NCBI GenBank assembly: GCA_037445895.1
Contig: JBBIJO010000004.1
Coordinates: 79,839-143,838, forward strand
From: Ignavibacteria bacterium
GTDB taxonomy: Bacteria > Bacteroidota > Ignavibacteria > Kapaibacteriales > UBA2268
Reading direction: 5' to 3'
DNA length: 64,000 nt
The translations under genes and the position numbers were made by a program. Of the stretch, positions 22,034 to 41,970 are shown in pieces (position 1 is the stretch's first letter; each line of letters opens with the position of its first letter). The notes under the pieces were generated by a model. It worked only from the letters and a program-made list of their open reading frames with translations. It searched no databases and was not told the DNA's origin.

Positions 22034-25000
22034 CTAGCTAATTGTTGTTAGTATTTCCTTTGCTTCCTGATTGTCGGGTTCGAGTTTTAGAGTCCAGCCG
22101 AGCATTCTTTTAGCCTCGTCGAAATCTTTGACTCGAAGGAAGCATTTCGCTGCACCTAAAAATGCGAGTGAGTTGTTGGGGTTAAGTCTTTTTGCTTCTG
22201 TGAAAAGTTGCAAACCGCTATCGTAATCGTTCATTTCGAGCATAATATTGCCCATATCGACAAAAAGGACATCCAGCGAATACCCAAGAACGGAATCGAA
22301 TCGTTCGTCTTTCCAGCGAGCAACCAAGTCGGAATATTTTTCTAATGCAGAAACAATATCGCCTTCGTTTTGAAGTATTTTTGCTTCTATATATAATGTG
22401 TCGATATTATTTGGTTCGCTTTGTCTTACTTTTTCAAGGTAAGACTTTACATTTTCTAGATTGGCAAGCAGAAATTCTGTGATTGCCATTCTTAGATAAA
22501 GAAAAATCTTATATTTTTCGTTTAGCGATTCGATATTAGGAATAATTCGATGATATAAGTCTTTTGCCTGTTCGAGGCGACTGCTGCTGAAAAATTCTTC
22601 TGCTTCGCCGAGCAGGATTTGCTCGTCACATTTGTCAGTCAGCGTTTCGAAGGATTTTTGAGCAATTCCTTTCCCATAAAGAGCGTCGATTCTACTTAGA
22701 ATCTTCAATGTCGAGCGTTTCCAAGTCCAAAGCGTTCGGGCATACTTCGAAGCAATTAATCCTCGAACAGTAATATCCGATGGATTTTGATAAATTGCAC
22801 GCATCAGCCCGGAAAGATAATCTCCGTCGGGTTCAAGGATAAAAGCTTCACCAACAAGTGGGTCGTTGTCGATTTGGCTGCCTATTGAAATTTTATACGA
22901 AGGGATTTTCCACGCAAAGGAATCAAGGACAAAATCTTCTGTGGCTCCATTTTGAGTAACTATGACGGGTAAACCACAAGCCATTGCTTCCAAAGTTGGC
23001 AACGAAAATCCCTCGCCACGATAAGGAGAAACGAAAACATCGCAAGCACGAAATAGACTTGCTATTTCCTCTTCGGCTAAATAATCCTTGATATAAATAA
23101 TTTCTGGGGTATTCGGTGTTCGTTTAATGGTTTCGATTTGCTCTTCGGCAGTTTGGCCCTTGTAAAACGACTCGGTCCCCATATCTTTGACGACAAGTGT
23201 AACATTGTCCTTCGAGGTAAATGTGCTTACGTAACTTTGAAGTAAAATGTCGATACCCTTCCGATATGTAGTTCCCCCGACGTAAAGGAATTTTAAACGT
23301 TTGTCTGTATTTAAACGGAATATTTTGCCTTTGGGTTGAAAGAGTTCGGGGTCGATTCCATTCGGAATTACCTGAATTCTGTTAAAATCGAGTCCACTAT
23401 TAATGAATGCTTGGCGTGTATAATTCGATGGAACCCATAGTTCGTCGGCATTCTTGAATATTTCTACGAAGCGTCGCGGGAGAGTTGTAAATTCCCAAGG
23501 TTGCATAATTACCCATTTGGCACCTTGTGGAGCATCCGCTTTGGGGGGCCATTGGTGACGAATCCACAGATAAGGTAATTTTTTTACCTCCATTGGGGGT
23601 TCTTGCTTGTATCTAATATCGTATCGAGCAAGTTTTTCATATTTTACATTTCCCGCCGGTTGAAATTGCTCGGCTTCGTATGGAATAATTGTAACCTCTA
23701 CTTGCCCACTATCAATTAAGTTAGAGCAATGCTCCCTATTGATTAAAGCAAGAGAATGGTAAACAAATTGCGAACCTTCCCAAACCACGTTTAGGCAGGG
23801 TGTAGATTTCGCGTGGGATTCAGAAGCCGAAGGTTTTTTGGAGAATAGTAAGTTCTCTTCCATTCTTGTCTCGCCTTTAATGTTGTTTTTGCTTTCTTCA
23901 ATATTTTCTGTGCTCGTAGAATACTCAATCAATTCTCGAAGGTCGGTTATTTCGAACTCTTTTGATTGGGTCTCAATTTCTTCGGATTCTGGGATAGGTT
24001 GTTTCTGTGTTAGTTGTTCCTTTTCTCTTTGTTCGTCCATAAATTCCTCCAATGTAACCGGCTTGCGTGCTTTAAATTCGATTTCGTAGCGGGTAAAATC
24101 ATTTGTATCTTCTTTTATTTCCAGACGAATAACTTCGAACCCAGCAGTTTGAAAGTGCCTATGAACGTCAGCCGGTAGGAATTTTTCACCGATGGAAGGA
24201 ATTTGAATTTTTTTCTCTTGTTGAAGCAGTTTGGGTGTTATTAAGAGTTCGTATTCCCTTGCCGTTATAGGGACTTTATTACAAAGTGCATTGTAAATTT
24301 TGAGAATATGCTCAATGTAATCATTGAACGAATGAAGAGGGAGAAGCGATTGCCGCATCGCCTCCATTTTATCTCGATTTAGGTTGCAATAATGAATTGT
24401 GGCAACAAGGGCGTCAACAGAGTCGTGTTCGTAAAGGAGACCGTTGACTCCATCGACAACGAAATCGGGAACACCTCCAATATTGGCTGCTACGAGCGGA
24501 AGTCGCATTGCATTCATTTCGAGGAGAGCAAGAGGGGCACAATCTTCCCATATACTCGGGAAAATCCCTATGTCGCTCGATGTAGCAATTTCCTCTAACA
24601 TTTCGGGTTTGTATTCACCATGGAATTGGATAATATGTTTTTTGTCGATTTGTTGGAGTTGAGCGAGGTATTTATTGCTAACAAATCCATAAATATGGAA
24701 TTCCACATCGTTTGGAATAAAATATTGGGCTGCTTTGGCAAGGATGTGGGCTCCTTTGTGTGGCATTACGCCACCAATCGAAACATATCGCAATCGTTCG
24801 GGGAGGCGTCTTGTCCCTTCCGATTTTAGTTTTTCGCTTTGCCAGATTTTATCGACAATTGGGTGGACTTGGTGGACAACAGCGATTTTTTCGTTTGCAC
24901 CCGAAAATTCCGTTAGCAGTTCTTTTTGCCTACGGGAAACAGCAAGCGTGATGTCCACCCACTCGTTCAATATCCGACGACTTGTTTCTTGGCGTTGTTC

Positions 25001-27073
25001 GTATTCTTTTAGCTTATGTGGATTCTTTTGGACAAGTTCAGAATTCGACAAGAAATCTGTATCGCTCCATAGTGTCAAATCGGGGTTAAATAAATACAGA
25101 TTGGGGTCTATTAAATGATAATTATGTGGGGTATAAAGAAGAGGAATATTGTATTCTTTTGCAACTTTGGGTAGGGCGAGAGTAAGTCCGTGAAAATTAT
25201 GGAAGTGTATAACATCGGGTTGTGTTGCTTCAACAACTTGCCGGAATTTCTCGACTACTTTTTCATCTAATATCTCTCTTTGAGGATTGTCGGGGTCGTT
25301 GAAAGTTGCTGGTCGATTGAAAAGCCCAAAAAGACGGACATTCCCTTCGTTTTGCTCTTCGAGTGAATATGGGGGGAAGGATGTATCGTAGCGAAGTGAA
25401 GCATAGAATACAGAAATTTCGAAACCCCGGCGAGAAAGTTCTTGTGCTACCGCGCGTGGGAATGTTGTTCCCCCTCCCGTCTCTTTCCACCCATACATTA
25501 CAAATAGAATCCTTTTCAATTGCTTCACTGGTTTGTCTTCTTTTGTTGTTGTAATAATTTTAGATAGGAGCATATTATTGGGTATGACGCCGATAGGAAT
25601 TTTTGAATTATCGAAAGAATGTTCCGAAACAAGCGTTTCGTTTGCCCAATGTAATTGCATTTCGCTAAAAAGTTTAGGGTGCTTTAAAAGAATTTTTGCT
25701 TTTTGGCGAGCGTCTTCCGAAAAATTGCCAGCAAAGTATATGTCCTTTGCGAAGAAACTTGTGAATAAAGGCTCTGGAACACGAATCCCACAACCACCAA
25801 ACTCTCCAGCTTTCAACCAGAAATCCCAAACTGAATATCCCGAAGGAAGCGCCTCATCGTAGCCTCCAACCCGAAGGACAAGTGCTCGCGGAAGCAAGTT
25901 TGTGCAGGGAAGGTAGTTAAATTTTTTTAGTTTTTCGAAGTTGTAATCTAAACTCTGGACTATTCTTTGGTTGGAGCTTTGGTAATAGTCGGAATAAGCA
26001 AAATAATTAGGAGAATAGTTATTCAAGATAGAGACAAGTTTTGTAATAAAGTTTGGAGAAATCTCGTCGCCTGAATGAATAAATGCAATATATTTCCCAT
26101 TAGCTATTCTGCTTAATAGGTTGCGGGCTTGCGTTTCGCGGTCTATCGGATACGATTTCTCCGGTTTCAAAATTTCGAAATTTGTATGTGTTTGGTATTG
26201 AATGGAGGTTAGGGTCCTTTGAATTTCTTCTTTGGTAGTTGTTTGAGGAATTAACACAACTATTGAAATTAAATCGTTGAAAGGATTATTGAAATGGTAG
26301 GGGAGTTGTAGCCTTTCCTGCGTCGAAAATAGTCTGACCGTGTTTTCCCCAAATAATTTACTAAGTTTATCGAGCTTCCAATGGAATGACAATTCTATAT
26401 TTTGCTGTTCTTGATTCAAATCCTGTATGGTAACCGAATGCAGACCAAGAATCATTTCTGCTTTTTCGAAATTTAAAACGCTTTCGATAGCGTTTTGCCA
26501 AAAATTGGTATTGATTTCGTCGAGACTATTGCCTTCGAAAGGCAAGATTTTTTCGGATATACTTTTTCGAAAGATAAATGTTGATGGGAAAATCGCAGAA
26601 CCTTTGTCGAATTGGTCTATCTCGTTCGGAAAAGTTGTAGCAACATTTGTGGCTGTATTTTCGAATATTTCTTGTTGGTCGGTTGTGATTAGCTCGTCGG
26701 AGAATACCCCTTCGAGATGGGGATTAATTTCCATATAATTCGACAGTAATGTCAACGCATCCGGGCGTAATATGCAATGCGGAAATGAAATTGCGATATA
26801 TTCACCTTTTGCATTTTGTATGGCAAAATTTAAGCGTTCTGCAATTGCTTCATCCTTTTCGAGCACTCGTATCGAAAACACATCGAAAAAGTTTCGGCAA
26901 AAATTTACGACATTGATGATTTCATTCGATTTAGGAACTACTATTAAAATTTCGAGTAGATTATTTTTGAATAATGTCTGTTTGCTAAAATTGTAGAATT
27001 GGTTCCGAAATTCGGTTTCGTCGCCTTCGGCAATTATTATTGCTGTAACCTTATGTTTAGTCGTTTCATCCAT
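22034..27073 (-). CDS. Giant multidomain glycosyltransferase: two GT2-like domains, two GT4 (group 1) domains, an acidic linker and C-terminal TPR repeats
   Basis: 1679-aa single ORF. N-terminal GT2-like segments (TAIIIAEGDE...; ISIVVLIPQTTTKEE...YIAFIHSGDEI). GT4 segment DVIHFHNFHGL ... EDCAPLALLEMNAMRLPLVAANIGGVPDFVVDGVNGLLYE. Second GT4 segment SPYRGEGFSLPTLEAMACGLPVIVTQNGATEDFV. C-terminal TPR-like helices. Confidence 0.7.
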   Translation of the reverse strand: MDETTKHKVTAIIIAEGDETEFRNQFYNFSKQTLFKNNLLEILIVVPKSNEIINVVNFCRNFFDVFSIRVLEKDEAIAERLNFAIQNAKGEYIAISFPHCILRPDALTLLSNYMEINPHLEGVFSDELITTDQQEIFENTATNVATTFPNEIDQFDKGSAIFPSTFIFRKSISEKILPFEGNSLDEINTNFWQNAIESVLNFEKAEMILGLHSVTIQDLNQEQQNIELSFHWKLDKLSKLFGENTVRLFSTQERLQLPYHFNNPFNDLISIVVLIPQTTTKEEIQRTLTSIQYQTHTNFEILKPEKSYPIDRETQARNLLSRIANGKYIAFIHSGDEISPNFITKLVSILNNYSPNYFAYSDYYQSSNQRIVQSLDYNFEKLKKFNYLPCTNLLPRALVLRVGGYDEALPSGYSVWDFWLKAGEFGGCGIRVPEPLFTSFFAKDIYFAGNFSEDARQKAKILLKHPKLFSEMQLHWANETLVSEHSFDNSKIPIGVIPNNMLLSKIITTTKEDKPVKQLKRILFVMYGWKETGGGTTFPRAVAQELSRRGFEISVFYASLRYDTSFPPYSLEEQNEGNVRLFGLFNRPATFNDPDNPQREILDEKVVEKFRQVVEATQPDVIHFHNFHGLTLALPKVAKEYNIPLLYTPHNYHLIDPNLYLFNPDLTLWSDTDFLSNSELVQKNPHKLKEYEQRQETSRRILNEWVDITLAVSRRQKELLTEFSGANEKIAVVHQVHPIVDKIWQSEKLKSEGTRRLPERLRYVSIGGVMPHKGAHILAKAAQYFIPNDVEFHIYGFVSNKYLAQLQQIDKKHIIQFHGEYKPEMLEEIATSSDIGIFPSIWEDCAPLALLEMNAMRLPLVAANIGGVPDFVVDGVNGLLYEHDSVDALVATIHYCNLNRDKMEAMRQSLLPLHSFNDYIEHILKIYNALCNKVPITAREYELLITPKLLQQEKKIQIPSIGEKFLPADVHRHFQTAGFEVIRLEIKEDTNDFTRYEIEFKARKPVTLEEFMDEQREKEQLTQKQPIPESEEIETQSKEFEITDLRELIEYSTSTENIEESKNNIKGETRMEENLLFSKKPSASESHAKSTPCLNVVWEGSQFVYHSLALINREHCSNLIDSGQVEVTIIPYEAEQFQPAGNVKYEKLARYDIRYKQEPPMEVKKLPYLWIRHQWPPKADAPQGAKWVIMQPWEFTTLPRRFVEIFKNADELWVPSNYTRQAFINSGLDFNRIQVIPNGIDPELFQPKGKIFRLNTDKRLKFLYVGGTTYRKGIDILLQSYVSTFTSKDNVTLVVKDMGTESFYKGQTAEEQIETIKRTPNTPEIIYIKDYLAEEEIASLFRACDVFVSPYRGEGFSLPTLEAMACGLPVIVTQNGATEDFVLDSFAWKIPSYKISIGSQIDNDPLVGEAFILEPDGDYLSGLMRAIYQNPSDITVRGLIASKYARTLWTWKRSTLKILSRIDALYGKGIAQKSFETLTDKCDEQILLGEAEEFFSSSRLEQAKDLYHRIIPNIESLNEKYKIFLYLRMAITEFLLANLENVKSYLEKVRQSEPNNIDTLYIEAKILQNEGDIVSALEKYSDLVARWKDERFDSVLGYSLDVLFVDMGNIMLEMNDYDSGLQLFTEAKRLNPNNSLAFLGAAKCFLRVKDFDEAKRMLGWTLKLEPDNQEAKEILTTIS

Positions 27074-33875: not shown

Positions 33876-33977
33876 TTTTAGTTACAAAAATTTTATAAAT
33901 CTCAAAAATAGTAATATTTATTTTATCATTTCAAAAGATTTTGATAAGTTTATCTTTTTGGTTTTTGGGATGAAACA

Positions 33978-34193
33978 ATGGAAATAAAAAAGTCAACATC
34001 GACAGATTCCTTCGACTATGAAATCGTCGTCCGACGCCGTGGCGAAAACGATTATGCTTCGTATTGTCCACAGCTTAATCTTATGGTTAACGGAATCGAA
34101 CACGAACAAGTGGTTATGCTTATGCGTAAGAAAATCGAAGAACATATTTATCGTCTGGCGAAACAACAGCAAACACAAAACCTTCAAGAATAG
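33978..34193 (+). CDS. HicB-like / UPF0150 family small protein (toxin-antitoxin-type antitoxin core, solitary)
   Basis: YEIVVRRRGENDYASYCPQLNLMVNGIEHEQVVMLMRKKIEEHI matches the [YF]xAxxPxLPGxxxxGxTxEEAxxxxxEAI pattern of HicB N-domains. No HicA or DNA-binding domain is present. Confidence 0.55.
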   Translation: MEIKKSTSTDSFDYEIVVRRRGENDYASYCPQLNLMVNGIEHEQVVMLMRKKIEEHIYRLAKQQQTQNLQE

Positions 34194-34344
34194 TGTTTGC
34201 CCGAAGATTCAACATACCCGGCTTGATTCGAAAGGGTAAGGTATTTGAATTTACTTGCCGGCGATGTCTAACTCGCAACAATGTTAGTATTTATTGGTGC
34301 ATATTGTCTGTTTCTTATTTCGAAAATTTGAACGCCCGATTATG

Positions 34345-35238
34345 GCATATAATCAATCGATAAAAAATATTTACGAGGCTTTGCGGCAAAGCTGGTTAGT
34401 TTCTTTGTTGCTGTTCTTGTTGGTTTTGTTTGTGGCTTACTTTGCTGTGTATTCCTTTGTGGGATTTCCGTTAAACATACTTTTCCCATCGGTTATTGCA
34501 AATATATCTGTGTTGCTGTTTCGACGTGAACGTGTTTGGTTCCTATTAGGCTTGAACTTCGATTGGACAGGCGTTCGTTTGTTTTTCGAAGGCTATTTTT
34601 TACCGCTCTTGGCGTTTATTCCAATTCTACTATTCTTTTTGCCCTATGGCGTTTCGCTTAACCCAAACCTTGCATTTAATGATTTTGCTGTTCGGACGAC
34701 TTTGTTGATTTTGTTTAGTGCAAGTTCCGAAGAGTTCGTTTTTCGTGGAATTCTTTTCCAAATGGCTATCGAAAAGAAAGGCGAAATCTTCCCAACATTA
34801 GCATTTAGTGTTGCTTTTGGATTATTCCACTTGTTGAACCCACACATTAATTTTTTGGGCATTATTAATATATTTTTTGCGAATGTGGTCCTTTCGGCAA
34901 TGTTTTTCCGGGCGTATTCTCTTTGGTTGCCAATTGGTTTCCATTTTGGCTGGAACTTTTGGCAAAGTTTCTTGCTCGATTCCCCAATAAGCGGAACATA
35001 TTTAGGATTACATCTTTTCCGGACACGGCTCCCAGAATTCAATCCGATAATTTTTGGCGGGAGTTTTGGCATCGAAGGCGGATTCGTTGGATTTTTTGCA
35101 TTAAGCCTTTTCTTTGTGATTGCTTTGAAAAGATACAAGCCAATTCCCCATATCTATTCGCGAATTTTGCGAGAACGCTACTGCCACCCAACCGAGTCGA
35201 ATGGGATAGGAAATAACGGGGTCGAAAAAATTACCTAA
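34345..35238 (+). CDS. CPBP-family intramembrane metalloprotease (CAAX protease / Abi-type)
   Basis: Multi-TM protein with motifs SEEFVFRGILF (EExxxR) and FGLFHLLN (FxxxH). The start is ambiguous between TTG 34294 and ATG 34345. Confidence 0.7.
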   Translation, partial: AYNQSIKNIYEALRQSWLVSLLLFLLVLFVAYFAVYSFVGFPLNILFPSVIANISVLLFRRERVWFLLGLNFDWTGVRLFFEGYFLPLLAFIPILLFFLPYGVSLNPNLAFNDFAVRTTLLILFSASSEEFVFRGILFQMAIEKKGEIFPTLAFSVAFGLFHLLNPHINFLGIINIFFANVVLSAMFFRAYSLWLPIGFHFGWNFWQSFLLDSPISGTYLGLHLFRTRLPEFNPIIFGGSFGIEGGFVGFFALSLFFVIALKRYKPIPHIYSRILRERYCHPTESNGIGNNGVEKIT

Positions 35239-35241
35239 AAT

Positions 35242-38200
35242 TTACGGAAGTATTTCTTCTACCAGTTTATCTATTTCCTTCATCTCTTCGGCAAGGTGCT
35301 TTTTTATGTCGAGACGGAGTTTGCCGAGCCGTGTGGCGGTTAGTTCTTTTTGCGGGGGATTGTCTTCTAAATATTTTGCTGCTTTTTTGTGTGCAAGCTC
35401 GCTTAGCTCAGCAAGTTTTATATGCACTTCGTTTGCTTCATCAAAGCGGGGGAAGTAAATGTCGAGTATCTTTTTTGAAACGTGTCTTGCTCCAAATAAT
35501 CCTCTTGCTTGGAAATCTTTCATTAAAAGATTTGGAATATTTGAATTTAAAATTGCTGTTAGATAGTATGCTTCTCTAAGATTATTTAATTCAATTCTAA
35601 ACGTTGTGTAATCAACAGCAAATTCAAAATCAATTTCTGCTCTTTTCAATATTGTTGAATAAGCGTCTTTACCTGACATATTATAGATAACCAGGTAAGG
35701 TGCATCAAGATTTTGCTGAGTTAATTTATTCTGCCAGTTCAAGTAATCTTCACTTGAAATATTCTGGTTCTTTTCAGTTCTATGAATCTGCCAGGTATTC
35801 TCAACATTCTTAAACCACTTAGAAGCATTAAAATAACCTTCCTGCATTAAATCATTTGCAGATTGCAGCTTTATTTGTTTCCTTCCCTCATTATTCTTTT
35901 CTATTAAAATAGGCAGGACAACCAAATCCGGTTTATACAAAGCAAAAGGCAAAATGCTTTTTGCCAGTGCAGTGCTGAAAAGAAATTTGCTTTCAATTCT
36001 GCCTGTAAACTCCAAACCTTTCCAGGGTTTCTTTGCATCTGTTTTAATTGCATCGGAGGTTTTAATGTTAATTATTCGGTCTTCGAAGTCGGGGGGAAAA
36101 TCTTGGGTTAGTTCAATAAAATAAAAACATCGGGGAACAATCGTAGCACCCTGCTTAAAATGTTTCTTGTAAGGGTTTTCTGTTTCTGTTGCTCTCGTTT
36201 CTCTTGTTGATATTGCAGAGGCTTTTCCTTGTTTTATGTAATACCATTCAACGGGTGTTTCTGTAAGTTTTTCTTTAACAGTTAAAAGATTACAGTTATG
36301 TTCTGTCAGTTTCCCGCTGAATATATTGCCCTTCAAACCAGCAAAAGAAGCTTTGTCTTTCTCGTCCTTCTCGGCAAAGAAGACGCAACTTGGAACTCTG
36401 AATAGCGGAGAAACATCTTTCAAATCCCAAATTTGTTTAAGCTTGAAGCCGACTGCTTTACCACTTCTTGTATTATCGTGATGGTCGGCGCTAAAGAAAC
36501 TTCTCGGCAGAACAAAAGCAATTTGTCCGTGTTCACTTAAAAAGTAACTACTGCAATATGCTAAAAATATTGCCGCTATTTCGAGGTGCGGAAAGTTAGC
36601 AACTTTAGCTGGCTTTACTTTATACTTATCAGCCAGTTCATTAAGTATATTCTGGTAATCTTCGTTCTTTATAGAGCTGTAAGTAAACCATGGCGGATTA
36701 CCGATAACATAATCAAACTTACCGGCGAGGAAGTAAGGTTTGTAAAGGTTTTGCACAATAAACTTCCAGATGCTGTCTCTACCTTTTTCTTTAACTACTT
36801 TTAATCCCGTATAAATTTTATAGAAACTGTCTATTACTTGCTTATTTACTCCCAATTTATTTCCGTTCTTTTCAAAATGCTTCCTGAAAATATTTCCAAA
36901 AACTTCCTCCGTCTCTTTTCTCTTTCCCATCGTCTGCTCTGCAAGGTCATCGCAAATTCCGAGCGCTTCATCAAACAGCTTTACATCTTCGAGTATTTGT
37001 GTAGTTAAGTGATACTTTTCTTTATCAATATTTAGAAGAAATTCATTGCCGAAAAGGTTTTGCACTCCTTCAGGTGCAAGAAGCGTGTTGGCGAGAATTA
37101 TGTTAAGGTAAACAGGTTTCTTTGCGTTTGTAATCTCCTTGCCAAGTGCAAGCAGTAAAGTTGTTTTGGCTATCTGCACACTAAGCGGGTGAATATCGAT
37201 TCCGTAAATCTGCTCATTTAATTCTTCGACTGTTACACCGGGATTAAGCTTTTTAATTCTGTGAATGGCTGCTCTTAAAAAAGAACCGCTTCCGCAAGCA
37301 GGGTCAAGAATCTTATCTGTTGGCTTAAATTCAAATTCTTCGACAATTCTTTCGCAAAGCCAGTCGGGTGTGTAATACTCGCCGAGCGAGTGCCTTGTAT
37401 CAATATCAATAAGTTCTTGGTAAACACCTTTAAGAATATCTTCGTCAACATTGCTAAAATCGAAGTTCGAAATTTCCTGTGCAATTAATCGAAAAACTTT
37501 TTTCAAGTTGTTGAAACTTCTGTCGGTGGTTACCCAATAGAAGAAATCGTTATCAACAAAATTTCGAATGTTATATCTATGGAAGATTGTTCCGTCGAGA
37601 ATACTTTTTAGTTCGGTATCGTCAATGTAATCGTCGTTAGATACAACACTATAAGCAAGCATTTTGGAGAAAACACTAAGGTAAGTATGGATAAGGAAAA
37701 TATTATCGCGTGCATCAAAAGAGCCATAGGCAATACTTAAGAATTTACTCCACTGTTCAAAAGAAACCTGCACTTCGCCGAACTTTTTTGCTTCGTTAAA
37801 CCATTTATTAAGCTCCCGAAAACACTCGATAAAAATATTGCTTTGATAGCCAAATGCCTCTTCGATTCTTTTAAGGGTTGCTTTTTGTTTTTCCTCTTTA
37901 AAAAGAAAGCGGTCAATCCAGAAGTAAAAATCATCGGCATTGTTCTCGGTTAGTACGAAAGAAGAACTTTTGACTTCATTTAATATAAGTTCGTGTTCCT
38001 GCAAAGATTCAATTTGTTCCAGTTGAAAGATGTTGGGGGCAAGGACTTTCCAAACGATGAAGTCGGAAGCAATTAGTGTAAAATTGTAGCCTTCCCCCGA
38101 GCGGAACTGTCCCAAAAGGTAGCCCGCTAATTGTTCCTTGGCGTGTTGCAGAGAAACTTTTAAATCATTTTCAAATTCAATAATGATTTTGTTGAAAAGT

Positions 38201-38421
38201 GTGTCGGCACTGCCTTTGTGAAGTTTGTCTTTGCGTGGAATATTTACGACTGTGCGTTCTGCGCCCGCTGTAATAGCATCAATGATTTTTAAGATTTCCT
38301 TGTCGCCAGCGTATAGTCGATTGAGAAGGTCTTTGAATGCTTCCTTTTTGGTAAGTTCTTTATTTGCATATTTTACTTTCCGCAAGTATTCAATGATATG
38401 TTTCGTTCGTTGCCCGTTCAT
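35242..38421 (-). CDS. Single-chain restriction-modification enzyme, MmeI-like (Type IIL/IIG): N-terminal nuclease-like domain, N6-adenine methyltransferase, C-terminal specificity region
   Basis: 1059 aa. N-terminal D-x8/9-E-x-K-like segment GSADTLFNKIIIEFENDLK resembles the MmeI nuclease motif. SAM-binding motif I ILDPACGSGSFL. Catalytic motif IV VIGNPPWF. Several hundred residues of C-terminal TRD-like sequence. No separate HsdR/HsdS genes nearby. Confidence 0.6.
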   Translation of the reverse strand: MNGQRTKHIIEYLRKVKYANKELTKKEAFKDLLNRLYAGDKEILKIIDAITAGAERTVVNIPRKDKLHKGSADTLFNKIIIEFENDLKVSLQHAKEQLAGYLLGQFRSGEGYNFTLIASDFIVWKVLAPNIFQLEQIESLQEHELILNEVKSSSFVLTENNADDFYFWIDRFLFKEEKQKATLKRIEEAFGYQSNIFIECFRELNKWFNEAKKFGEVQVSFEQWSKFLSIAYGSFDARDNIFLIHTYLSVFSKMLAYSVVSNDDYIDDTELKSILDGTIFHRYNIRNFVDNDFFYWVTTDRSFNNLKKVFRLIAQEISNFDFSNVDEDILKGVYQELIDIDTRHSLGEYYTPDWLCERIVEEFEFKPTDKILDPACGSGSFLRAAIHRIKKLNPGVTVEELNEQIYGIDIHPLSVQIAKTTLLLALGKEITNAKKPVYLNIILANTLLAPEGVQNLFGNEFLLNIDKEKYHLTTQILEDVKLFDEALGICDDLAEQTMGKRKETEEVFGNIFRKHFEKNGNKLGVNKQVIDSFYKIYTGLKVVKEKGRDSIWKFIVQNLYKPYFLAGKFDYVIGNPPWFTYSSIKNEDYQNILNELADKYKVKPAKVANFPHLEIAAIFLAYCSSYFLSEHGQIAFVLPRSFFSADHHDNTRSGKAVGFKLKQIWDLKDVSPLFRVPSCVFFAEKDEKDKASFAGLKGNIFSGKLTEHNCNLLTVKEKLTETPVEWYYIKQGKASAISTRETRATETENPYKKHFKQGATIVPRCFYFIELTQDFPPDFEDRIINIKTSDAIKTDAKKPWKGLEFTGRIESKFLFSTALAKSILPFALYKPDLVVLPILIEKNNEGRKQIKLQSANDLMQEGYFNASKWFKNVENTWQIHRTEKNQNISSEDYLNWQNKLTQQNLDAPYLVIYNMSGKDAYSTILKRAEIDFEFAVDYTTFRIELNNLREAYYLTAILNSNIPNLLMKDFQARGLFGARHVSKKILDIYFPRFDEANEVHIKLAELSELAHKKAAKYLEDNPPQKELTATRLGKLRLDIKKHLAEEMKEIDKLVEEILP

Positions 38422-38484
38422 TTAATTCTTGCATTTTTTAATATTGTTGTCGCATAAATTGTTTCGAGAATCGAGCTTGAACGC

Positions 38485-39804
38485 TCAGTATTCGGGCGTA
38501 TAGCCCATATTCGATATCCAGTTTCGAACTTTGTGTGCAATGTGGTCGTTCTTTTGGTGAAGGCGAAGGAATTGGTTCAAGTCATCCGCCGCATAGGAAT
38601 ATAAATTATCGGCACGATAAGCGATTGCTCGATTTAAATATGCAATTGTGCTGTGTGAATTGCATTCCAATGCTCGCGAAAAATCTTCGATTGCTTTTTT
38701 ATAATATTTCATTTTCATATAAACATTGCCTCGGGCAATATAGGCATTGTAGAAATCGGGTTTCAAGGTAATTGATTTAGTGAAATCTTTTAGTGCGTTG
38801 CGATATTGTTCGAGTGCGAAGTGGGCATTCCCGCGGCCATAGTAAGCAACGGAATAGCTCGGGTCGATAGTGAGAGCTTTGTCGTAGTCGATAATTGCCT
38901 CGATATAATTTTTTGCACCTAAATTAGCATTTCCCCGATTGAAATAGACTGCCGATGCGAGAGGATTTATTTTGGCGGCTTTATCGAAGAATTCAACTGC
39001 CTTTGCATAGTTTTTCAATCCAATATGGGCAATCCCGATGTTGTTGTAGGCATCGGCAAAATTTGGTTTCAACCTCAATACGCGTTCGAAGTCTTCGAGT
39101 GCAAGTTCATATTGCTTCAACTGGTTAAAGCAGTAGCCACGATAATTATATGGTAGGTAGTTTTCGTCGTCGATTGCTATTGCAATTGTAAAATCGGTAA
39201 TTGCTTCCTTATAACGTCGAAGATTTAAGTTGGCAACCCCACGGGAGATGAAGACTTTTGGCTCGGAGGGTTCGAGTTCTATTGCTTTGTCGTAGTTGGC
39301 AATAGCTTCGTCCAATTGTTTCAATTGAAAAAGGCAATTTGCCCGATACATATAGGAAAGTGCATGGGTCGGATTCAATTCAATTGATTTCGAGAAATCC
39401 TCGACTGCCTCGTTGTATCTGCGTAATAAATAGAAGCAAAAACCTCGACGATAGAAAGCAAGCGGGAAGTTACGATTGATTTCAACGGCACTTGTGAAAT
39501 CCATAATGGCATCTTTAATTCGGCGAAGTTCAAGGTAGCAAAGCCCTTTCTTGAAGTAAGCAAACGAAAATGATGGGTCGAGCGAGATTGTATTCATAAA
39601 ATAATGTATTGCTTCCTCGTATCTTTTCAAAGCAAAAAGAGTATTACCAGTTTTGAAATATGCAAAAGGCGAGCGTGAATTTTCTTCGACTGCGTTCATA
39701 TAGTATTGTAGGGCTTCTTCGAAATTGTTTGAATTGAAGGCGTTGTCGCCGAATTCAATCCATTCCTCTGCTGTCCTTTGAATAACTGATGGTCTTTTTT
39801 CCAT
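38485..39804 (-). CDS. TPR-repeat protein (11 or more tetratricopeptide repeats)
   Basis: Regular 34-aa repeats with AxxxYxxAIxxDP consensus throughout 439 aa. Confidence 0.8.
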   Translation of the reverse strand: MEKRPSVIQRTAEEWIEFGDNAFNSNNFEEALQYYMNAVEENSRSPFAYFKTGNTLFALKRYEEAIHYFMNTISLDPSFSFAYFKKGLCYLELRRIKDAIMDFTSAVEINRNFPLAFYRRGFCFYLLRRYNEAVEDFSKSIELNPTHALSYMYRANCLFQLKQLDEAIANYDKAIELEPSEPKVFISRGVANLNLRRYKEAITDFTIAIAIDDENYLPYNYRGYCFNQLKQYELALEDFERVLRLKPNFADAYNNIGIAHIGLKNYAKAVEFFDKAAKINPLASAVYFNRGNANLGAKNYIEAIIDYDKALTIDPSYSVAYYGRGNAHFALEQYRNALKDFTKSITLKPDFYNAYIARGNVYMKMKYYKKAIEDFSRALECNSHSTIAYLNRAIAYRADNLYSYAADDLNQFLRLHQKNDHIAHKVRNWISNMGYTPEY

Positions 39805-39898
39805 TTGTGTTCTGTAAAATATTTAATTTCAGACTTCGTTGTATGTTTTTTCTCAATTAAGCAAATTAATAAACAATTTTTAATAATAATTTAATAGA

Positions 39899-40231
39899 AT
39901 GCTAAAATTTTTGCGGTTATCGCTTTTAACCGACGATTTATTTAAACGATTCGTCGAAAAAGAGTTAAATCTTAACGACCAACTTGCAGCAATACGTTCG
40001 ATTCTTGCGAGCGAGCGAACTTTTCTTGCTTACCAAAGAACTGCTCTTGCGACTTTGGCTGCGGGATTTACCCTAATTCAATTCTTTCAAAATTTTTGGA
40101 TTGAGATTGTAGGCTGGGTATTGGTTCCGATTGCTATTTTTACGCTTACATTTGGATTTATTCGCTATCGCAAAACTAGAAAATACATATTTCAGTTGGA
40201 AAAAGATTTCGCCCGCCACAACCACCATTAA
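39899..40231 (+). CDS. DUF202 (YidH-like) small membrane protein
   Basis: LASERTFLAYQRTALA motif followed by two TM helices; 110 aa. Confidence 0.6.
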   Translation: MLKFLRLSLLTDDLFKRFVEKELNLNDQLAAIRSILASERTFLAYQRTALATLAAGFTLIQFFQNFWIEIVGWVLVPIAIFTLTFGFIRYRKTRKYIFQLEKDFARHNHH

Positions 40232-40237
40232 ATCCAA

Positions 40238-40927
40238 TTACCAATTTTTTTCAACTTTGCGTTCGCTCCGAGGAAGCACCTTGGCTTTTACTTCTTTTTG
40301 TGTTTTCTTCTCTTCGTTCCGCAGTGCGTTTAAAATATTTTCTATGTTTTGTTGGGAGATTTTTTGTTCTCTGGGTTGGTCTTGGCGGTTTTGTTGTTGT
40401 TCTTGTTGGGGTTGGTTTTGTTGTGTTTGCTGTTTTTGTTGTTCTTTCTGTTGCTTTGAATCTTGATTTTGATTTTGCTGTTGTTTTTGCTGTTCTTGAA
40501 CGGCAAGCATTCGGCGAGCAAATTCAAGGTTGTATTTAGCGTCGTAATCTTTGGGGTTTAGCTTCAACGCCTTTTTGTAGTAATCGATGCTTTCTTTGTA
40601 TTGTTTATTTTTCAGGTAAGAATTTCCAAGGTTGTAGTAGGAATCGGCTTGGAGTTTCGAGTCGTTTGTCCTTTGTGTTGTTTCGGTATATTTTTGAATA
40701 GATTCGGAATATTTTCCTTGCTTATACAATGAATTCCCGAGATTGTAGATTCCTTCGCTTTTGTTTGTTTCTTGTTCGAGCGCTTTTCGATAAAGGACTT
40801 CGGCTTCATCGAATTTCCCCGATTTATACTTTGCATTGCCGTTGCGCAAAAGTTCCTTCGAGGATTGTCCGTAAGCAATAATTCCAACGAAGAAAAGAGC
40901 AGTTGCAAAAGCCAATAAGTTCCTCAT
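40238..40927 (-). CDS. TPR-repeat protein with Q/K-rich low-complexity tail (BatC-like)
   Basis: Signal peptide, three TPR units, then QQKQQQNQNQDSKQQKEQQKQQTQQNQPQQEQQQNRQDQ. Lies immediately downstream of batA with a 4-nt overlap. Confidence 0.55.
   Translation of the reverse strand: MRNLLAFATALFFVGIIAYGQSSKELLRNGNAKYKSGKFDEAEVLYRKALEQETNKSEGIYNLGNSLYKQGKYSESIQKYTETTQRTNDSKLQADSYYNLGNSYLKNKQYKESIDYYKKALKLNPKDYDAKYNLEFARRMLAVQEQQKQQQNQNQDSKQQKEQQKQQTQQNQPQQEQQQNRQDQPREQKISQQNIENILNALRNEEKKTQKEVKAKVLPRSERKVEKNW
40340..40500. repeat. Low-complexity (CAA/CAG/AAA-rich, poly-Q/K-coding) tract inside the BatC-like gene
   Basis: On the plus strand: runs of gttgtt/ttgctg/ttttg; on the coding strand this gives a glutamine/lysine-rich tract. 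Confidence 0.7.
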
Positions 40928-41970
40928 TTTGTAGTCCTGTTTTGAACGAACAAACTCAATTTCTCGAAATATTTGTTTTTCTTTTCGGTAACTAAAATTT
41001 CTAAGAAAAGCAAAAATATAGCAAAAGCAAGGGGATATTGAAATTGGGATTCGAAACTCGAAAAGATTTTTGCATCGTATTCCTTTTTTTCCATTTGTGC
41101 TATTTTTTCGACAATTTTTGAAAGCTCGGGGTCGACCCCACTATTCAAAATGAATTCGCCGCCGCCAGCACTTGCAATTTGCTCTAACATTACTGGATTG
41201 ACCTTTGTAGTAACCACAGAACCTTCGCCGTCTTTAAGGAAACCAACGTTTGCGCCATTCCTATAAATTGGGATTGGGCCACCAGTTACAGTTCCCATTC
41301 CAATAGTATGGATTACAAAGTTTTTGCTAACAGCAAGCCGAGCAGCAGCAAGCGCATCGTCTTCGTGGTTTTCGCCATCTGTGATAATAATTAAAACCTT
41401 TTTTCTTTGCTCATCGAAATTGAATTTGTCGGCAGCAAGTTCAATCGCTGAACCAATTGCAGTGCCTTGTAATGGGATGATGTCGGTATCGACATAGCTT
41501 GTGAAAAGCTTTGCTGCTCCGTAGTCGGTTGTCAAAGGTAGCTGAATATATGATTCCCCAGCAAACACAATTAATCCAATGCGGTCGTTAACAAGCTTAT
41601 CTATCAGTTTGTAAATCATTTGTTTTGCACGCTCGAGCCGGTTTGGTTTGATATCTTCGGCTTTCATACTATTGGATATGTCGAGCGCAATAACGACATC
41701 GACACCTTGGCGTTTTGCTTGAACAAGTTTTGTCCCAAGCAAAGGATTTGCTAATGCAATAATCAATGCCGAAAGCGAAAGGAGAAGCAGAATGGTTTTA
41801 AAATAGGGTTTGTATTTCGAATAAGTTGGGAAAAGTTCTTCGACGAGCTCGGGATTGCCAAAGTTTCGAAGTATTTTTTCCCGACGAATTCGCATTAAGA
41901 AAAAAATTACGAAAATTGAAACTACAAGAAAAAATCCATAAAAATATTCGTTCGCTTCGAAATGCAACAT
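40924..41970 (-). CDS. batA: BatA-like aerotolerance protein (von Willebrand factor A domain membrane protein)
   Basis: Two N-terminal TM segments; vWA MIDAS motif VVIALDISNSM; about 350 aa, typical of BatA. Confidence 0.75.
   Translation of the reverse strand: MLHFEANEYFYGFFLVVSIFVIFFLMRIRREKILRNFGNPELVEELFPTYSKYKPYFKTILLLLSLSALIIALANPLLGTKLVQAKRQGVDVVIALDISNSMKAEDIKPNRLERAKQMIYKLIDKLVNDRIGLIVFAGESYIQLPLTTDYGAAKLFTSYVDTDIIPLQGTAIGSAIELAADKFNFDEQRKKVLIIITDGENHEDDALAAARLAVSKNFVIHTIGMGTVTGGPIPIYRNGANVGFLKDGEGSVVTTKVNPVMLEQIASAGGGEFILNSGVDPELSKIVEKIAQMEKKEYDAKIFSSFESQFQYPLAFAIFLLFLEILVTEKKNKYFEKLSLFVQNRTTK

What the first reader, a model, noticed from the sequence alone, without database searches (positions are those of the whole stretch)
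35242..38421. Single-polypeptide MmeI-like (Type IIL) restriction-modification enzyme
One ORF carries an N-terminal D-x8-9-E-x-K-like segment (GSADTLFNKIIIEFENDLK, compare MmeI VDLFWPGILLIEMK), motif I ILDPACGSGSFL and motif IV NPPW, and about 450 C-terminal residues consistent with a target-recognition domain. No companion methyltransferase, HsdS or HsdR gene is present. MmeI-family enzymes modify only one strand and cut 18-20 nt away, and their specificity is evolvable. A new family member would define a new recognition sequence.
Basis: partly seen in the sequence, partly recalled or inferred. Interest (0 to 1): 0.6.

Follow-up and report, generated by a model that had tools for sequence, protein, structure and literature searches.

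The report
TspDTI-like single-chain restriction-modification enzyme
This gene encodes a large single protein that probably both methylates and cuts DNA at a specific sequence; it is an uncharacterised distant relative of the Thermus enzymes TspDTI, Tth111II and TsoI, not of MmeI, so it is an ordinary defence gene that may recognise a new sequence.

Summary
It is a stand-alone fused nuclease-methyltransferase. A high-confidence AlphaFold model gives this order: N-terminal PD-(D/E)XK nuclease, helical linker, gamma-class N6-adenine methyltransferase, target-recognition domain, C-terminal helices.

It is not an MmeI-family member. Neither it nor its relatives match the MmeI linker, TRD or C-terminal Pfam models. 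MmeI matches the family profile only weakly, within the methyltransferase region.

The nuclease motif is D73-x8-E82-x-E84. That is the "atypical D-EXE" motif which, together with DPACGSG and NPPW, defines the TspDTI/Tth111II/TsoI subfamily. The query aligns with TspDTI (BLASTP 4e-43). Its family profile aligns with TsoI over 888 columns (hhalign 1e-83).

Identity to these enzymes is only 24%, so the gene belongs to a large uncharacterised sister clade in Ignavibacteria and Bacteroidota. In that clade, three TRD loops co-vary as discrete haplotypes, which suggests several specificities on one scaffold.

Characterised relatives cut at 11/9, not 20/18. Tth111II methylates one strand only.

Verdict: new member of a known kind, modest interest.

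The parts
35242..38421 (-). Complete ORF of 1059 aa (122.8 kDa, pI 6.57), stop codon at 35242-35244: a fused restriction-modification enzyme.
   Evidence: Homologues align end to end at 68-86% identity.
37897..38421 (-). N-terminal PD-(D/E)XK nuclease domain, residues about 1-175 (three helices, four strands, a long helix, two strands).
   Evidence: AF2 model m9f7219ecc173. Twelve of 47 family N-terminal domains match Pfam MmeI_N; others match HSDR_N_2, PDDEXK_9 or NucS_C. The domain aligns with the TspDTI/TsoI nuclease domain.
38170..38205 (-). Catalytic motif D73-x8-E82-x-E84 (DTLFNKIIIEFE), the 'atypical D-EXE' motif. The upstream acidic residue E55 lies at 38257-38259.
   Evidence: Invariant in 73 close homologues. 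Aligns with TspDTI D66/E75/E77. Position 84 is K in 60 and E in 44 of 105 superfamily representatives.
38119..38133 (-). Q97-x3-Y101 (QLAGY) on the helix that follows the catalytic strand. From my own knowledge, this resembles the QxxxY motif of HsdR/RecB-type nucleases.
   Evidence: Y101 is conserved in 103 of 105 representatives and position 97 is Q in 73 and E in 27. It aligns with TsoI QQVKDY.
37462..37896 (-). Helical linker, residues about 176-320, equivalent to the HsdM-like helical domain between nuclease and methyltransferase.
   Evidence: All-helical in the AF2 model. Aligns with the TspDTI helical region.
36352..37461 (-). [quoted passage not shown]
   Evidence: Pfam N6_Mtase, Eco57I and MmeI_Mtase. 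PDB profile hits to CamA, StySJI M, MmeI, DrdV and BsaXI.
37285..37305 (-). Motif I, the SAM-binding motif DPACGSG (residues 373-379).
   Evidence: Identical to the TspDTI-subfamily motif (PMC3384240; alignment).
36688..36699 (-). Motif IV, the catalytic NPPW (residues 575-578).
   Evidence: N, P and P are invariant and W is present in 104 of 105 representatives. Identical to TspDTI NPPW626.
35437..36351 (-). Target-recognition domain, residues about 691-995. It ends in LDIYFPRFD, comparable to RIPRY in TspDTI/TsoI and to the 'FPFP' motif of MmeI.
   Evidence: AF2 model. This is the most variable part of the protein. The second BLASTP segment to TsoI and TspDTI falls here.
35665..35685 (-). 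Candidate specificity loop 1, YNMSGKD (residues 913-919).
   Evidence: Aligns with TspDTI WTRLAK968, predicted as a specificity determinant in PMC3384240. Co-varies with loops 2 and 3.
35605..35616 (-). Candidate specificity loop 2, VDYT (residues 936-939).
   Evidence: Aligns with TspDTI PQET987. Co-varies with loops 1 and 3.
35476..35490 (-). Candidate specificity loop 3, ARHVS (residues 978-982).
   Evidence: Aligns with TspDTI KSMGS1028. Co-varies with loops 1 and 2.
35245..35436 (-). C-terminal three-helix segment, residues 996-1059.
   Evidence: AF2 model helices 998-1020, 1029-1042 and 1044-1057.

Best explanation
The ORF encodes a stand-alone, single-chain restriction-and-modification enzyme of the Type IIS/IIC/IIG kind. 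It belongs to the superfamily whose characterised members are the 'Thermus family' TspDTI-subfamily enzymes: TspDTI, Tth111II/TthHB27I, TsoI and CchII. Shown here: the domain order (nuclease, helical linker, gamma-class m6A methyltransferase, TRD, C-terminal helices); the three signature motifs (D-EXE, DPACGSG, NPPW); full-length profile homology to TsoI and TspDTI; and the absence of any conserved partner gene. Inferred from the biochemistry of relatives: the TRD and methyltransferase domains bind a short asymmetric site. The methyltransferase uses SAM to methylate one adenine on one strand only, which marks host DNA. On unmodified DNA, the N-terminal D-EXE nuclease cuts at a fixed distance to one side of the site (N11/N9 in every characterised relative). 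Efficient double-strand cleavage would need two sites or a transient dimer. The recognition sequence is probably set largely by three co-varying TRD loops (residues 913-919, 936-939, 978-982). The query carries the NMSG/VDYT/RHVS haplotype.
For: Architecture: AF2 model with a diverse alignment, mean pLDDT 89.2 and pTM 0.84. Foldseek hits at E 1e-12 to 4e-16 to PglX, CamA, M.BseCI, DrdV, MmeI and BpuSI. Family link: PADLOC PDLC03630 matches the query at residues 66-1030, 8.3e-79. TsoI scores 1748 bits full-length on that same model and 2189 bits on PDLC03580. BLASTP of query against TspDTI (ABO26711, P0423) gives 4e-43 over residues 67-672 plus 3e-8 over 939-1014. Against TsoI it gives 3e-39 and 2e-7. 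hhalign of family profile A5 against TsoI gives probability 100, E 1.1e-83 and 888 aligned columns. D73/E82/E84, DPACGSG and NPPW align exactly with TspDTI D66/E75/E77, DPACGSG and NPPW626. These are the published subfamily signatures (PMC3384240; PMC3751577). Nuclease domain: relatives match Pfam MmeI_N down to 1.4e-8, and also HSDR_N_2. Residues 61-120 are among the most conserved parts of the protein in 117 close homologues. Solitary and mobile: the genomic context differs in every genome examined, with no shared neighbour. Relatives occur on plasmids and on viral contigs. The gene is absent from the corresponding locus in 14 related genomes. Biochemistry of relatives: Tth111II methylates only CAARC(m6A), needs at least two sites, is stimulated by SAM and cuts N11/N9 (PMC3899748).
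Against: Identity to TspDTI and TsoI is only 24%. More than 150 clusters at 50% identity lie closer to the query than these enzymes do. I found no characterised member in the query's own clade, so cleavage distance, strandedness of methylation and even nuclease activity are extrapolations. The catalytic lysine is replaced by glutamate. The TsoI authors report that methyltransferase activity dominates nuclease activity in their recombinant enzyme (PMC3751577). The gene sits among housekeeping genes rather than in a defence island. No methylome or biochemical data exist for this organism.
Confidence: 0.8

Rival explanations
1. It is a member of the MmeI family (Type IIL) in the strict sense. It would then cut 20/18 nt from its site and modify one strand.
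For: The five-domain order is the same as in MmeI (PMC4833311; model). MmeI 5HR4 is a Foldseek hit at 5e-13, with TM 0.54 normalised on the target. Pfam MmeI_Mtase matches weakly at 37.6 bits. Pfam MmeI_N matches 12 of 47 relatives' N-terminal domains. E55/D73/E82 are colinear with MmeI E51/D70/E80 (PMC2731913). There is no companion methyltransferase.
Against: The published inclusion criteria are not met (BLAST E<1e-20 to MmeI, the D70/E80/K82 triad, and similarity over the whole length). There is no phmmer hit to MmeI at E<=1. The profile hit is only 1.3e-9, with its best stretch at profile positions 300-387. None of 46 relatives matches MmeI_hel, MmeI_TRD or MmeI_C. K82 is replaced by E. 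Foldseek scores for PglX, CamA, M.BseCI and DrdV are as good or better. Homology to TspDTI and TsoI is far stronger and runs the full length.
Confidence: 0.05
2. It is effectively a solitary DNA methyltransferase, epigenetic or regulatory, whose N-terminal nuclease is inactive because the catalytic lysine has become glutamate.
For: Position 84 is E instead of the canonical K. The gene lies among housekeeping genes. For TsoI, methyltransferase activity dominates nuclease activity and the authors suggest an additional biological role (PMC3751577). The Tth111II and TspDTI literature reports incomplete cleavage.
Against: D-EXE is the motif of TspDTI, Tth111II and TsoI, which do cut DNA. E55, D73, E82, E84, Q97 and Y101 are invariant in 73 close homologues. 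The nuclease core is among the least variable regions, which a decaying domain would not be. K/E exchange has occurred about eight times in the superfamily while the rest of the active site was retained. The gene is not syntenic between related genomes, unlike conserved regulatory methyltransferases.
Confidence: 0.12
3. It is the methyltransferase component of a multi-gene defence system, such as BREX PglX, MADS MAD2 or a Type I HsdM, whose partners lie elsewhere.
For: There are weak NCBIfam hits to MAD2 (58.4 bits) and to BREX-2 and BREX-6 PglX (35.9 and 27.5 bits). PglX/BrxX is the top Foldseek hit. The best PDB sequence hits are Type I M subunits.
Against: All those scores are far below the curated cut-offs of 720, 400 and 900 bits, and they cover only the SAM-binding region. 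No brx, pgl, mad, hsdS or hsdR gene flanks the gene in the window or in five other genomes. The protein carries its own nuclease domain and its own TRD.
Confidence: 0.03

Closest known systems
TspDTI subfamily of the 'Thermus sp. family' Type IIS/IIC/IIG enzymes: TspDTI (ATGAA 11/9), Tth111II/TthHB27I (CAARCA 11/9), TsoI (TARCCA 11/9), CchII (GGARGA 11/9)
   Same: Both are single polypeptides of about 120 kDa with a slightly acidic pI (query 122.8 kDa, pI 6.57; TspDTI 126.9 kDa, pI 6.68). The R-Mh-Mc-S domain order is the same. The signature motifs are identical: D-x8-E-x-E, DPACGSG and NPPW. Profile homology is colinear and full-length (hhalign 1e-83; BLASTP 4e-43). The query's best PADLOC model (PDLC03630) is one on which TsoI scores 1748 bits. 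In both groups, close homologues differ mainly in the TRD, and no companion methyltransferase is adjacent.
   Different: Identity is only about 24%, against 84% between TsoI and a TspDTI-cluster protein. The query is about 55 aa shorter, with a shorter helical linker (about 145 aa versus about 200). The host is a Kapaibacteria/Ignavibacteria-like organism of about 38% GC rather than Thermus. Its clade has no characterised member that I could find. Recognition site, cleavage offset and SAM response are unknown.
MmeI family (Type IIL; MmeI, NmeAIII and others; PDB 5HR4)
   Same: The five-domain order is the same. Both are stand-alone genes without a second methyltransferase. The N-terminal nuclease is of the same Pfam kind in relatives (MmeI_N). 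The acidic residues E, D and E are colinear. The TRD ends in an aromatic-proline motif followed by C-terminal helices. The evolvable-TRD logic is shared.
   Different: There is no significant pairwise sequence similarity. Only the motif X-I region matches at profile level (1.3e-9). The MmeI linker, TRD and C-terminal Pfam models do not match. K82 is replaced by E. Motif I is DPACGSG. The 20/18 reach is undemonstrated and unlikely to transfer.
DrdV (Type IIL; PDB 7LO5/7LVV)
   Same: It is similar in length (about 1014-1029 aa). Foldseek aligns it over more than 1200 columns, including the N-terminal domain (E 2e-14).
   Different: Identity is 11-12% and TM-scores are 0.35-0.41. The sequence profile matches only the SAM-binding region (6.5e-9).
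BREX PglX/BrxX (PDB 8C45, 9EWZ)
   Same: It gives the best Foldseek E-value (4e-16). It shares the gamma-class methyltransferase, a TRD of the same type, and single-strand m6A modification of an asymmetric site.
   Different: From my own knowledge, PglX has no PD-(D/E)XK nuclease and works only within a six-gene BREX operon. No such genes are present here. NCBIfam PglX scores are 36 and 28 bits against cut-offs of 400 and 900.

Membership tests
TspDTI subfamily (Thermus-family Type IIS/IIC/IIG) | One polypeptide of about 120 kDa with the domain order nuclease, helical domain, methyltransferase, recognition domain | tested here: met
   1059 aa and 122.8 kDa. The AF2 model shows that order. hhalign aligns 888 columns colinearly with TsoI.
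TspDTI subfamily (Thermus-family Type IIS/IIC/IIG) | Atypical D-EXE nuclease motif (TspDTI D66, E75, E77) | tested here: met
   D73, E82 and E84 align with D66, E75 and E77 and are invariant in close homologues.
TspDTI subfamily (Thermus-family Type IIS/IIC/IIG) | [quoted passage not shown] | tested here: met
   DPACGSG at residues 373-379.
TspDTI subfamily (Thermus-family Type IIS/IIC/IIG) | Methyltransferase catalytic motif NPPW | tested here: met
   NPPW at residues 575-578, aligned with NPPW626 of TspDTI.
TspDTI subfamily (Thermus-family Type IIS/IIC/IIG) | Relatively high amino-acid similarity to TspDTI, Tth111II and TsoI despite different specificities | tested here: inconclusive
   Homology is certain (BLASTP 4e-43; hhalign 1e-83; PADLOC PDLC03630 8e-79) but identity is 24%, against 84% between TsoI and P0295 of the TspDTI cluster. 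The query is best described as a sister clade within the same superfamily.
TspDTI subfamily (Thermus-family Type IIS/IIC/IIG) | Cleavage at N11/N9, nuclease activity affected by SAM, and methylation of one strand (shown for Tth111II) | not testable with these tools
   Needs enzyme assays.
MmeI family (Type IIL) | BLAST E<1e-20 to MmeI with similarity along the whole length (PMC2731913) | tested here: not met
   No phmmer hit to 5HR4 at E<=1. The profile hit is 1.3e-9, with its best stretch at profile positions 300-387. None of 46 relatives matches MmeI_hel, MmeI_TRD or MmeI_C.
MmeI family (Type IIL) | Completely conserved D70, E80 and K82 | tested here: not met
   The D and the first E are present. 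The K position is E84, invariant in the clade.
MmeI family (Type IIL) | Stand-alone gene with no second methyltransferase and no conserved neighbour | tested here: met
MmeI family (Type IIL) | Cuts 20/18 and modifies one strand only | not testable with these tools
   Needs biochemistry or a methylome.
BREX PglX | Score above the NCBIfam PglX cut-off and location in a brx/pgl operon | tested here: not met
   35.9 and 27.5 bits against cut-offs of 400 and 900. No brx genes lie in any context examined.
MADS MAD2 | Score above the NCBIfam MAD2 cut-off, with mad partner genes | tested here: not met
   58.4 bits against a cut-off of 720, covering residues 311-391 only. No partner genes are present.
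Type I HsdM | Separate HsdS and HsdR subunits encoded nearby | tested here: not met
   The neighbours are a TPR protein, a CAAX protease, TrkA and a BatA/VWA protein. The protein carries its own nuclease and TRD.

The most novel reading that the evidence does not exclude
The Ignavibacteria/Bacteroidota clade (68-86% identical proteins) may be an uncharacterised mesophilic branch of the TspDTI-like superfamily. In it, three short co-varying TRD loops would encode discrete recognition specificities on an otherwise fixed scaffold. If methylomes link each loop haplotype to a motif, this would give a second MmeI-style 'recognition code' and an engineerable scaffold, possibly with a cleavage offset different from both 11/9 and 20/18.
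Probability: 0.35. Interest if true: 0.5.

Novelty: new member of a known kind. Interest (0 to 1): 0.3.

Why it matters
If active, the enzyme would most likely define a new recognition sequence for a Type IIS/IIG enzyme from a mesophile. That has practical value. The clade also offers many natural variants, with at least five or six loop haplotypes among 117 close homologues. These could be used to work out how this scaffold reads DNA, as was done for MmeI. Biologically it is one more horizontally mobile, stand-alone defence gene and does not change any concept. The useful correction for annotation is that proteins with D-x8-E-x-E, DPACGSG and NPPW should be compared with TspDTI, Tth111II and TsoI rather than with MmeI. 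Their expected cut distance should not be assumed to be 20/18.

Tried and rejected
1. Sequence searches of the PDB with the query and with the close-family profile returned only Type I M subunits. They could not name a family.
2. The first AF2 model used 73 close homologues. It was mediocre (pLDDT 75.6), with the catalytic strands below 50. I replaced it with a model from a diverse 46-sequence alignment (pLDDT 89.2).
3. The coordinates of the models are not exposed. I therefore could not test whether a lysine or arginine such as K175, which co-varies with E84, sits in the active site.
4. A plasmid homologue is annotated 'restriction endonuclease BseRI'. It scores no better on PADLOC PDLC03630 than the query does, so that label gave no usable link.
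5. The supplements of Blow et al. 2016 contain no methylome for Salinibacter, Melioribacter or Ignavibacterium.
6. Cluster-member names for ten distant representatives were all generic.
7. The exact query protein is not on record in the contig index, so the source assembly was not identified directly.
8. The synteny test for a clean insertion site was inconclusive. Gene order breaks upstream of TrkA or beyond the CAAX-protease gene in all relatives, so there is no empty site to compare.
9. The sigma-70 promoter scan was at background level. Terminator-like sites were 8 against 4.8 expected (sd 2.2), and I drew nothing from them.
11. I considered PglX, MAD2 and HsdM readings and rejected them on curated score cut-offs and the lack of partner genes.
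Full report
OBSERVATION. The window holds an uninterrupted ORF at 35242..38421 on the minus strand (ATG start, 1059 aa). GSADTLFNKIIIEFENDLK is residues 70-88, ILDPACGSGSFL contains motif I (DPACGSG, 373-379), and NPPW is 575-578. I re-translated the coordinates. The predicted protein is 122.8 kDa with pI 6.57. Pfam finds N6_Mtase (2.4e-17), Eco57I (1.1e-15) and a weak MmeI_Mtase match (37.6 bits), and nothing in the first 300 or last 390 residues. PADLOC model PDLC03630, 'Type IIG restriction enzyme-methyltransferase', matches residues 66-1030 at 8.3e-79. One detail needs correcting. The nuclease-like motif is D73-x8-E82-x-E84, with glutamate where the canonical motif has lysine.

SURROUNDINGS. 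The neighbours are ordinary genes: a TPR protein (38485..39804), a CAAX/Rce1-like protease (34294..35238), TrkA, a PD40-repeat protein, GcvT, DUF202 and a BatA/VWA protein. No other ORF of at least 150 aa in the 64 kb carries both an amino-methyltransferase motif I and a motif IV. GC content is not deviant across the gene. The gene is therefore solitary here.

HOMOLOGUES AND MOBILITY. More than 120 protein clusters at 90% identity are 68-86% identical to the query over its whole length. Those with names come from Ignavibacterium, Melioribacter, Pedobacter, Chitinophagales and other Bacteroidota. An exhaustive search of 1.84 billion representatives finds 1117 clusters at 50% identity with E<1e-30, many of them full-length proteins of about 1000-1100 aa down to 28% identity.

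The genomic context differs in every genome examined.
- In Melioribacter the gene lies next to a small GIY-YIG protein.
- In Pedobacter it sits in an island with RteC, radical-SAM, CTD7, MC3 and LmuB_C genes.
- In one JGI contig it is followed by GmrSD_N and HEPN genes.
- In the remaining genomes it lies among metabolic genes.

Relatives occur on plasmids, for example Salinibacter ruber pSR35 at 44% identity. A few occur on IMG/VR contigs, one at 67% identity. TrkA-anchored loci from 14 related Kapaibacteria/Ignavibacteria genomes keep TrkA-PD40 synteny, and most also keep the CAAX-protease gene. None has the RM gene there. This is the behaviour of a horizontally mobile, self-sufficient gene.

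THE N-TERMINAL DOMAIN IS A NUCLEASE OF THE MmeI_N/HsdR KIND. In 105 full-length representatives, E55 (99), G70 (100), D73 (104), E82 (104) and Y101 (103) are conserved. Position 97 is Q in 73 and E in 27. Position 84 is K in 60 and E in 44. The pattern E...D...E-x-(K/E)...Q-x3-Y is that of PD-(D/E)XK nucleases. The resemblance of QxxxY to HsdR/RecB-type nucleases is from my own knowledge. Scanned individually, 12 of 47 family N-terminal domains match Pfam MmeI_N (best 1.4e-8). Others match HSDR_N_2, PDDEXK_9 or NucS_C. The query's own domain is too divergent to match directly. An NJ tree with parsimony suggests that K is ancestral and that there were about eight K/E exchanges (rough). Within the query's clade, residues 61-120 are among the least variable parts of the protein, so the domain is under strong constraint.

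STRUCTURE. A first model from close homologues was mediocre. A second, from a diverse 46-sequence alignment, is good (mean pLDDT 89.2, pTM 0.84). It shows:
- three helices, then strands 57-63, 66-71, 74-76 and 79-83, then a long helix 87-107 and strands 115-119 and 123-129, which form the nuclease;
- an all-helical linker to about residue 320;
- the Rossmann-fold methyltransferase to about residue 690;
- a mixed alpha/beta TRD to about residue 995;
- three C-terminal helices.

Foldseek against the PDB gives a broad plateau of hits: PglX/BrxX 4e-16, CamA and M.BseCI about 1e-15, DrdV 2e-14, MmeI 5e-13 and BpuSI 1e-12. The fold class is clear, but no solved structure is specifically close.

WHY NOT MmeI. 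The MmeI-family paper required three things: BLAST E<1e-20 to MmeI, conserved D70/E80/K82, and similarity along the whole length (PMC2731913). Here phmmer of the query against all PDB sequences, including MmeI, gives no MmeI hit at E<=1. The diverse family profile reaches MmeI at only 1.3e-9, with its best stretch at profile positions 300-387. That is no better than CamA, StySJI M or BsaXI. None of 46 relatives matches MmeI_hel, MmeI_TRD or MmeI_C. The K is absent. What is shared with MmeI is the architecture, the nuclease superfamily and the colinear acidic residues (E55/D73/E82 against E51/D70/E80).

WHAT IT IS RELATED TO. The combination D-EXE, DPACGSG and NPPW is the published signature of the TspDTI subfamily of the 'Thermus sp. 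family' of Type IIS/IIC/IIG enzymes (TspDTI, Tth111II/TthHB27I, TsoI, CchII). The TspGWI/TaqII subfamily instead has PD-x13-ExK, DPA(V/M)GTG and NPPY (PMC3384240; PMC3751577). That paper also notes that other TspDTI homologues carry D-EXK, which matches my K/E split.

I took the TsoI sequence from the paper's supplement. It is 100% identical to a Thermus scotoductus database protein. I also recovered TspDTI itself (ABO26711 = P0423). The comparisons were as follows.
- BLASTP of query against TspDTI: 24% identity over residues 67-672 (4e-43) plus 939-1014 (3e-8).
- BLASTP of query against TsoI: 3e-39 and 2e-7.
- hhalign of the family profile against TsoI: probability 100, E 1.1e-83, 888 aligned columns spanning 65-1005 and 60-1068.
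- TsoI scores 2189 bits on PADLOC PDLC03580 and 1748 bits full-length on PDLC03630. The latter is the query's best full-length PADLOC model, so TsoI fits it far better than the query does.
- A multiple alignment places D73/E82/E84 on D66/E75/E77, DPACGSG on DPACGSG and NPPW on NPPW626.

The relationship is therefore homologous over the whole length but distant. More than 150 clusters at 50% identity are closer to the query than TsoI is, and none of those I looked up has an informative name. I file the gene as a member of the TspDTI-like superfamily, in an uncharacterised sister clade, and not as a member of the Thermus subfamily proper.

SPECIFICITY REGION. Variability among 117 close homologues is concentrated in residues 681-720, 841-860 and 921-960. 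The three loops that Zylicz-Stachula et al. predicted as TspDTI specificity determinants map as follows in the query:
- WTRLAK968 maps to YNMSGKD (913-919);
- PQET987 maps to VDYT (936-939);
- KSMGS1028 maps to ARHVS (978-982).

In the close family these three loops co-vary as discrete haplotypes:

| Loop 1 | Loop 2 | Loop 3 | Approximate count |
|---|---|---|---|
| NSSA or NASA | VESV | RHVH | 30 |
| NSSA or NASA | VESK | RDVH | 16 |
| NMSG | VDYT | RHVS | 10 exact, about 12 with near-variants (the query's type) |
| NSSG | VDYK | RDVS | 4 |
| NTSG | xDHK | RDVH or RDIH | 6 |

The query's haplotype is kept in proteins whose surrounding TRD is only 60% identical to the query's. Meanwhile, proteins 88-89% identical in residues 1-680 carry other haplotypes and a TRD segment only 67-70% identical. 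This is what selection on recognition sequence plus TRD mosaicism would produce. It is the same logic that made MmeI engineerable.

MECHANISM (INFERRED). I extrapolate from Tth111II, TspDTI and TsoI. The enzyme should bind a short asymmetric site through the TRD and methyltransferase domains, then flip one adenine into the NPPW pocket and methylate it using SAM bound at DPACGSG. Only that strand would be modified. On unmodified DNA the D-EXE nuclease should nick and then cut at a fixed offset. Double-strand cleavage would depend on a second site or a transient dimer, and the activity would be modulated by SAM. The offset is 11/9 in all characterised relatives. The query's helical linker is about 55 residues shorter than TspDTI's, so I do not predict the offset.

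The main uncertainty is whether this clade cuts efficiently at all. I give 0.12 to a mainly-methyltransferase role. Against that role stand the strict conservation of the nuclease core and the proven activity of D-EXE enzymes.

VERDICT. It is wrong in family: the gene is TspDTI/Tth111II/TsoI-like, not MmeI-like. It is probably also wrong in cut distance. The gene is a new member of a known kind. Interest is modest (0.3), resting on a probably new specificity and a natural series of loop haplotypes worth pairing with methylomes.

Noticed in passing
Superfamily alignment (P0121-P0270 and P0294-P0413), column of query residue 84: The third catalytic residue is K in 60 and E in 44 of 105 representatives. 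An NJ tree with parsimony suggests about eight independent K/E exchanges, including within the TsoI clade. Position 175 is R or K in 31 of 44 E-type proteins but mostly S, A or T in K-type proteins. This may be a compensating basic residue.
   Followed up: partly
Query residues 690-995 (window 35437-36351) compared with P0005, P0054, P0063 and P0075: The TRD is mosaic. P0005 is 89% identical to the query in residues 1-680 but 70% in 900-995. P0054 and P0063 are 55-56% identical in 690-900 yet 84-88% in the C-terminal helices. This suggests recombination of TRD segments between family members.
   Followed up: partly
Window about 33900-40000 compared with loci L014-L023: Synteny with related Kapaibacteria/Ignavibacteria genomes (TrkA, PD40, HHH, GcvT) stops just upstream of TrkA in the closest relative, L014. 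In the others it stops beyond the CAAX-protease gene. The RM gene therefore sits at a rearrangement boundary. The TrkA hits also indicate that the window comes from a Kapaibacteria-like organism.
   Followed up: partly
L003:1-19171 (Pedobacter aquatilis) and L011:11233-12815: Close homologues sit beside other conflict-system genes. In Pedobacter these are FRG, radical-SAM, CTD7, MC3 and LmuB_C. In a JGI contig they are GmrSD_N plus HEPN RiboL-PSP. In L009 a DUF559 (Vsr-like) gene follows the homologue.
   Followed up: no
P0344 (1251 aa, Armatimonadetes, TsoI clade): One TsoI-clade protein carries additional DUF559 (PF04480) and PF18741 domains. BLAST aligns it with only 49% of TsoI. It may be a fusion with an extra nuclease module.
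   Followed up: no
L012:4830-11834 (Rhizobium sp. Q54 plasmid): A distant homologue (25% identity) annotated 'restriction endonuclease BseRI' is followed by a second 945-aa SAM-dependent methyltransferase and a RES-domain protein, beside integrase and recombinase genes. Some branches of the superfamily may have a companion methyltransferase.
   Followed up: no
L030 (IMGVR_UViG_3300045146_000225, 120.8 kb): A 67%-identical full-length homologue lies on a contig classified as viral. Seventeen more distant relatives are also on IMG/VR contigs. Carriage by phages or prophages is possible.
   Followed up: no
Window 22034-27073 (minus strand): A 1679-aa ORF appears, from reading the sequence, to combine several glycosyltransferase-like segments with a C-terminal TPR region. 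It is an unusually large multi-domain protein. I did not analyse it with any tool.
   Followed up: no
Window 40238-41970 (minus strand): A BatA/VWA protein and a TPR protein with a long Q-rich tail resemble part of a Bat aerotolerance-type operon (the operon comparison is from my own knowledge).
   Followed up: no
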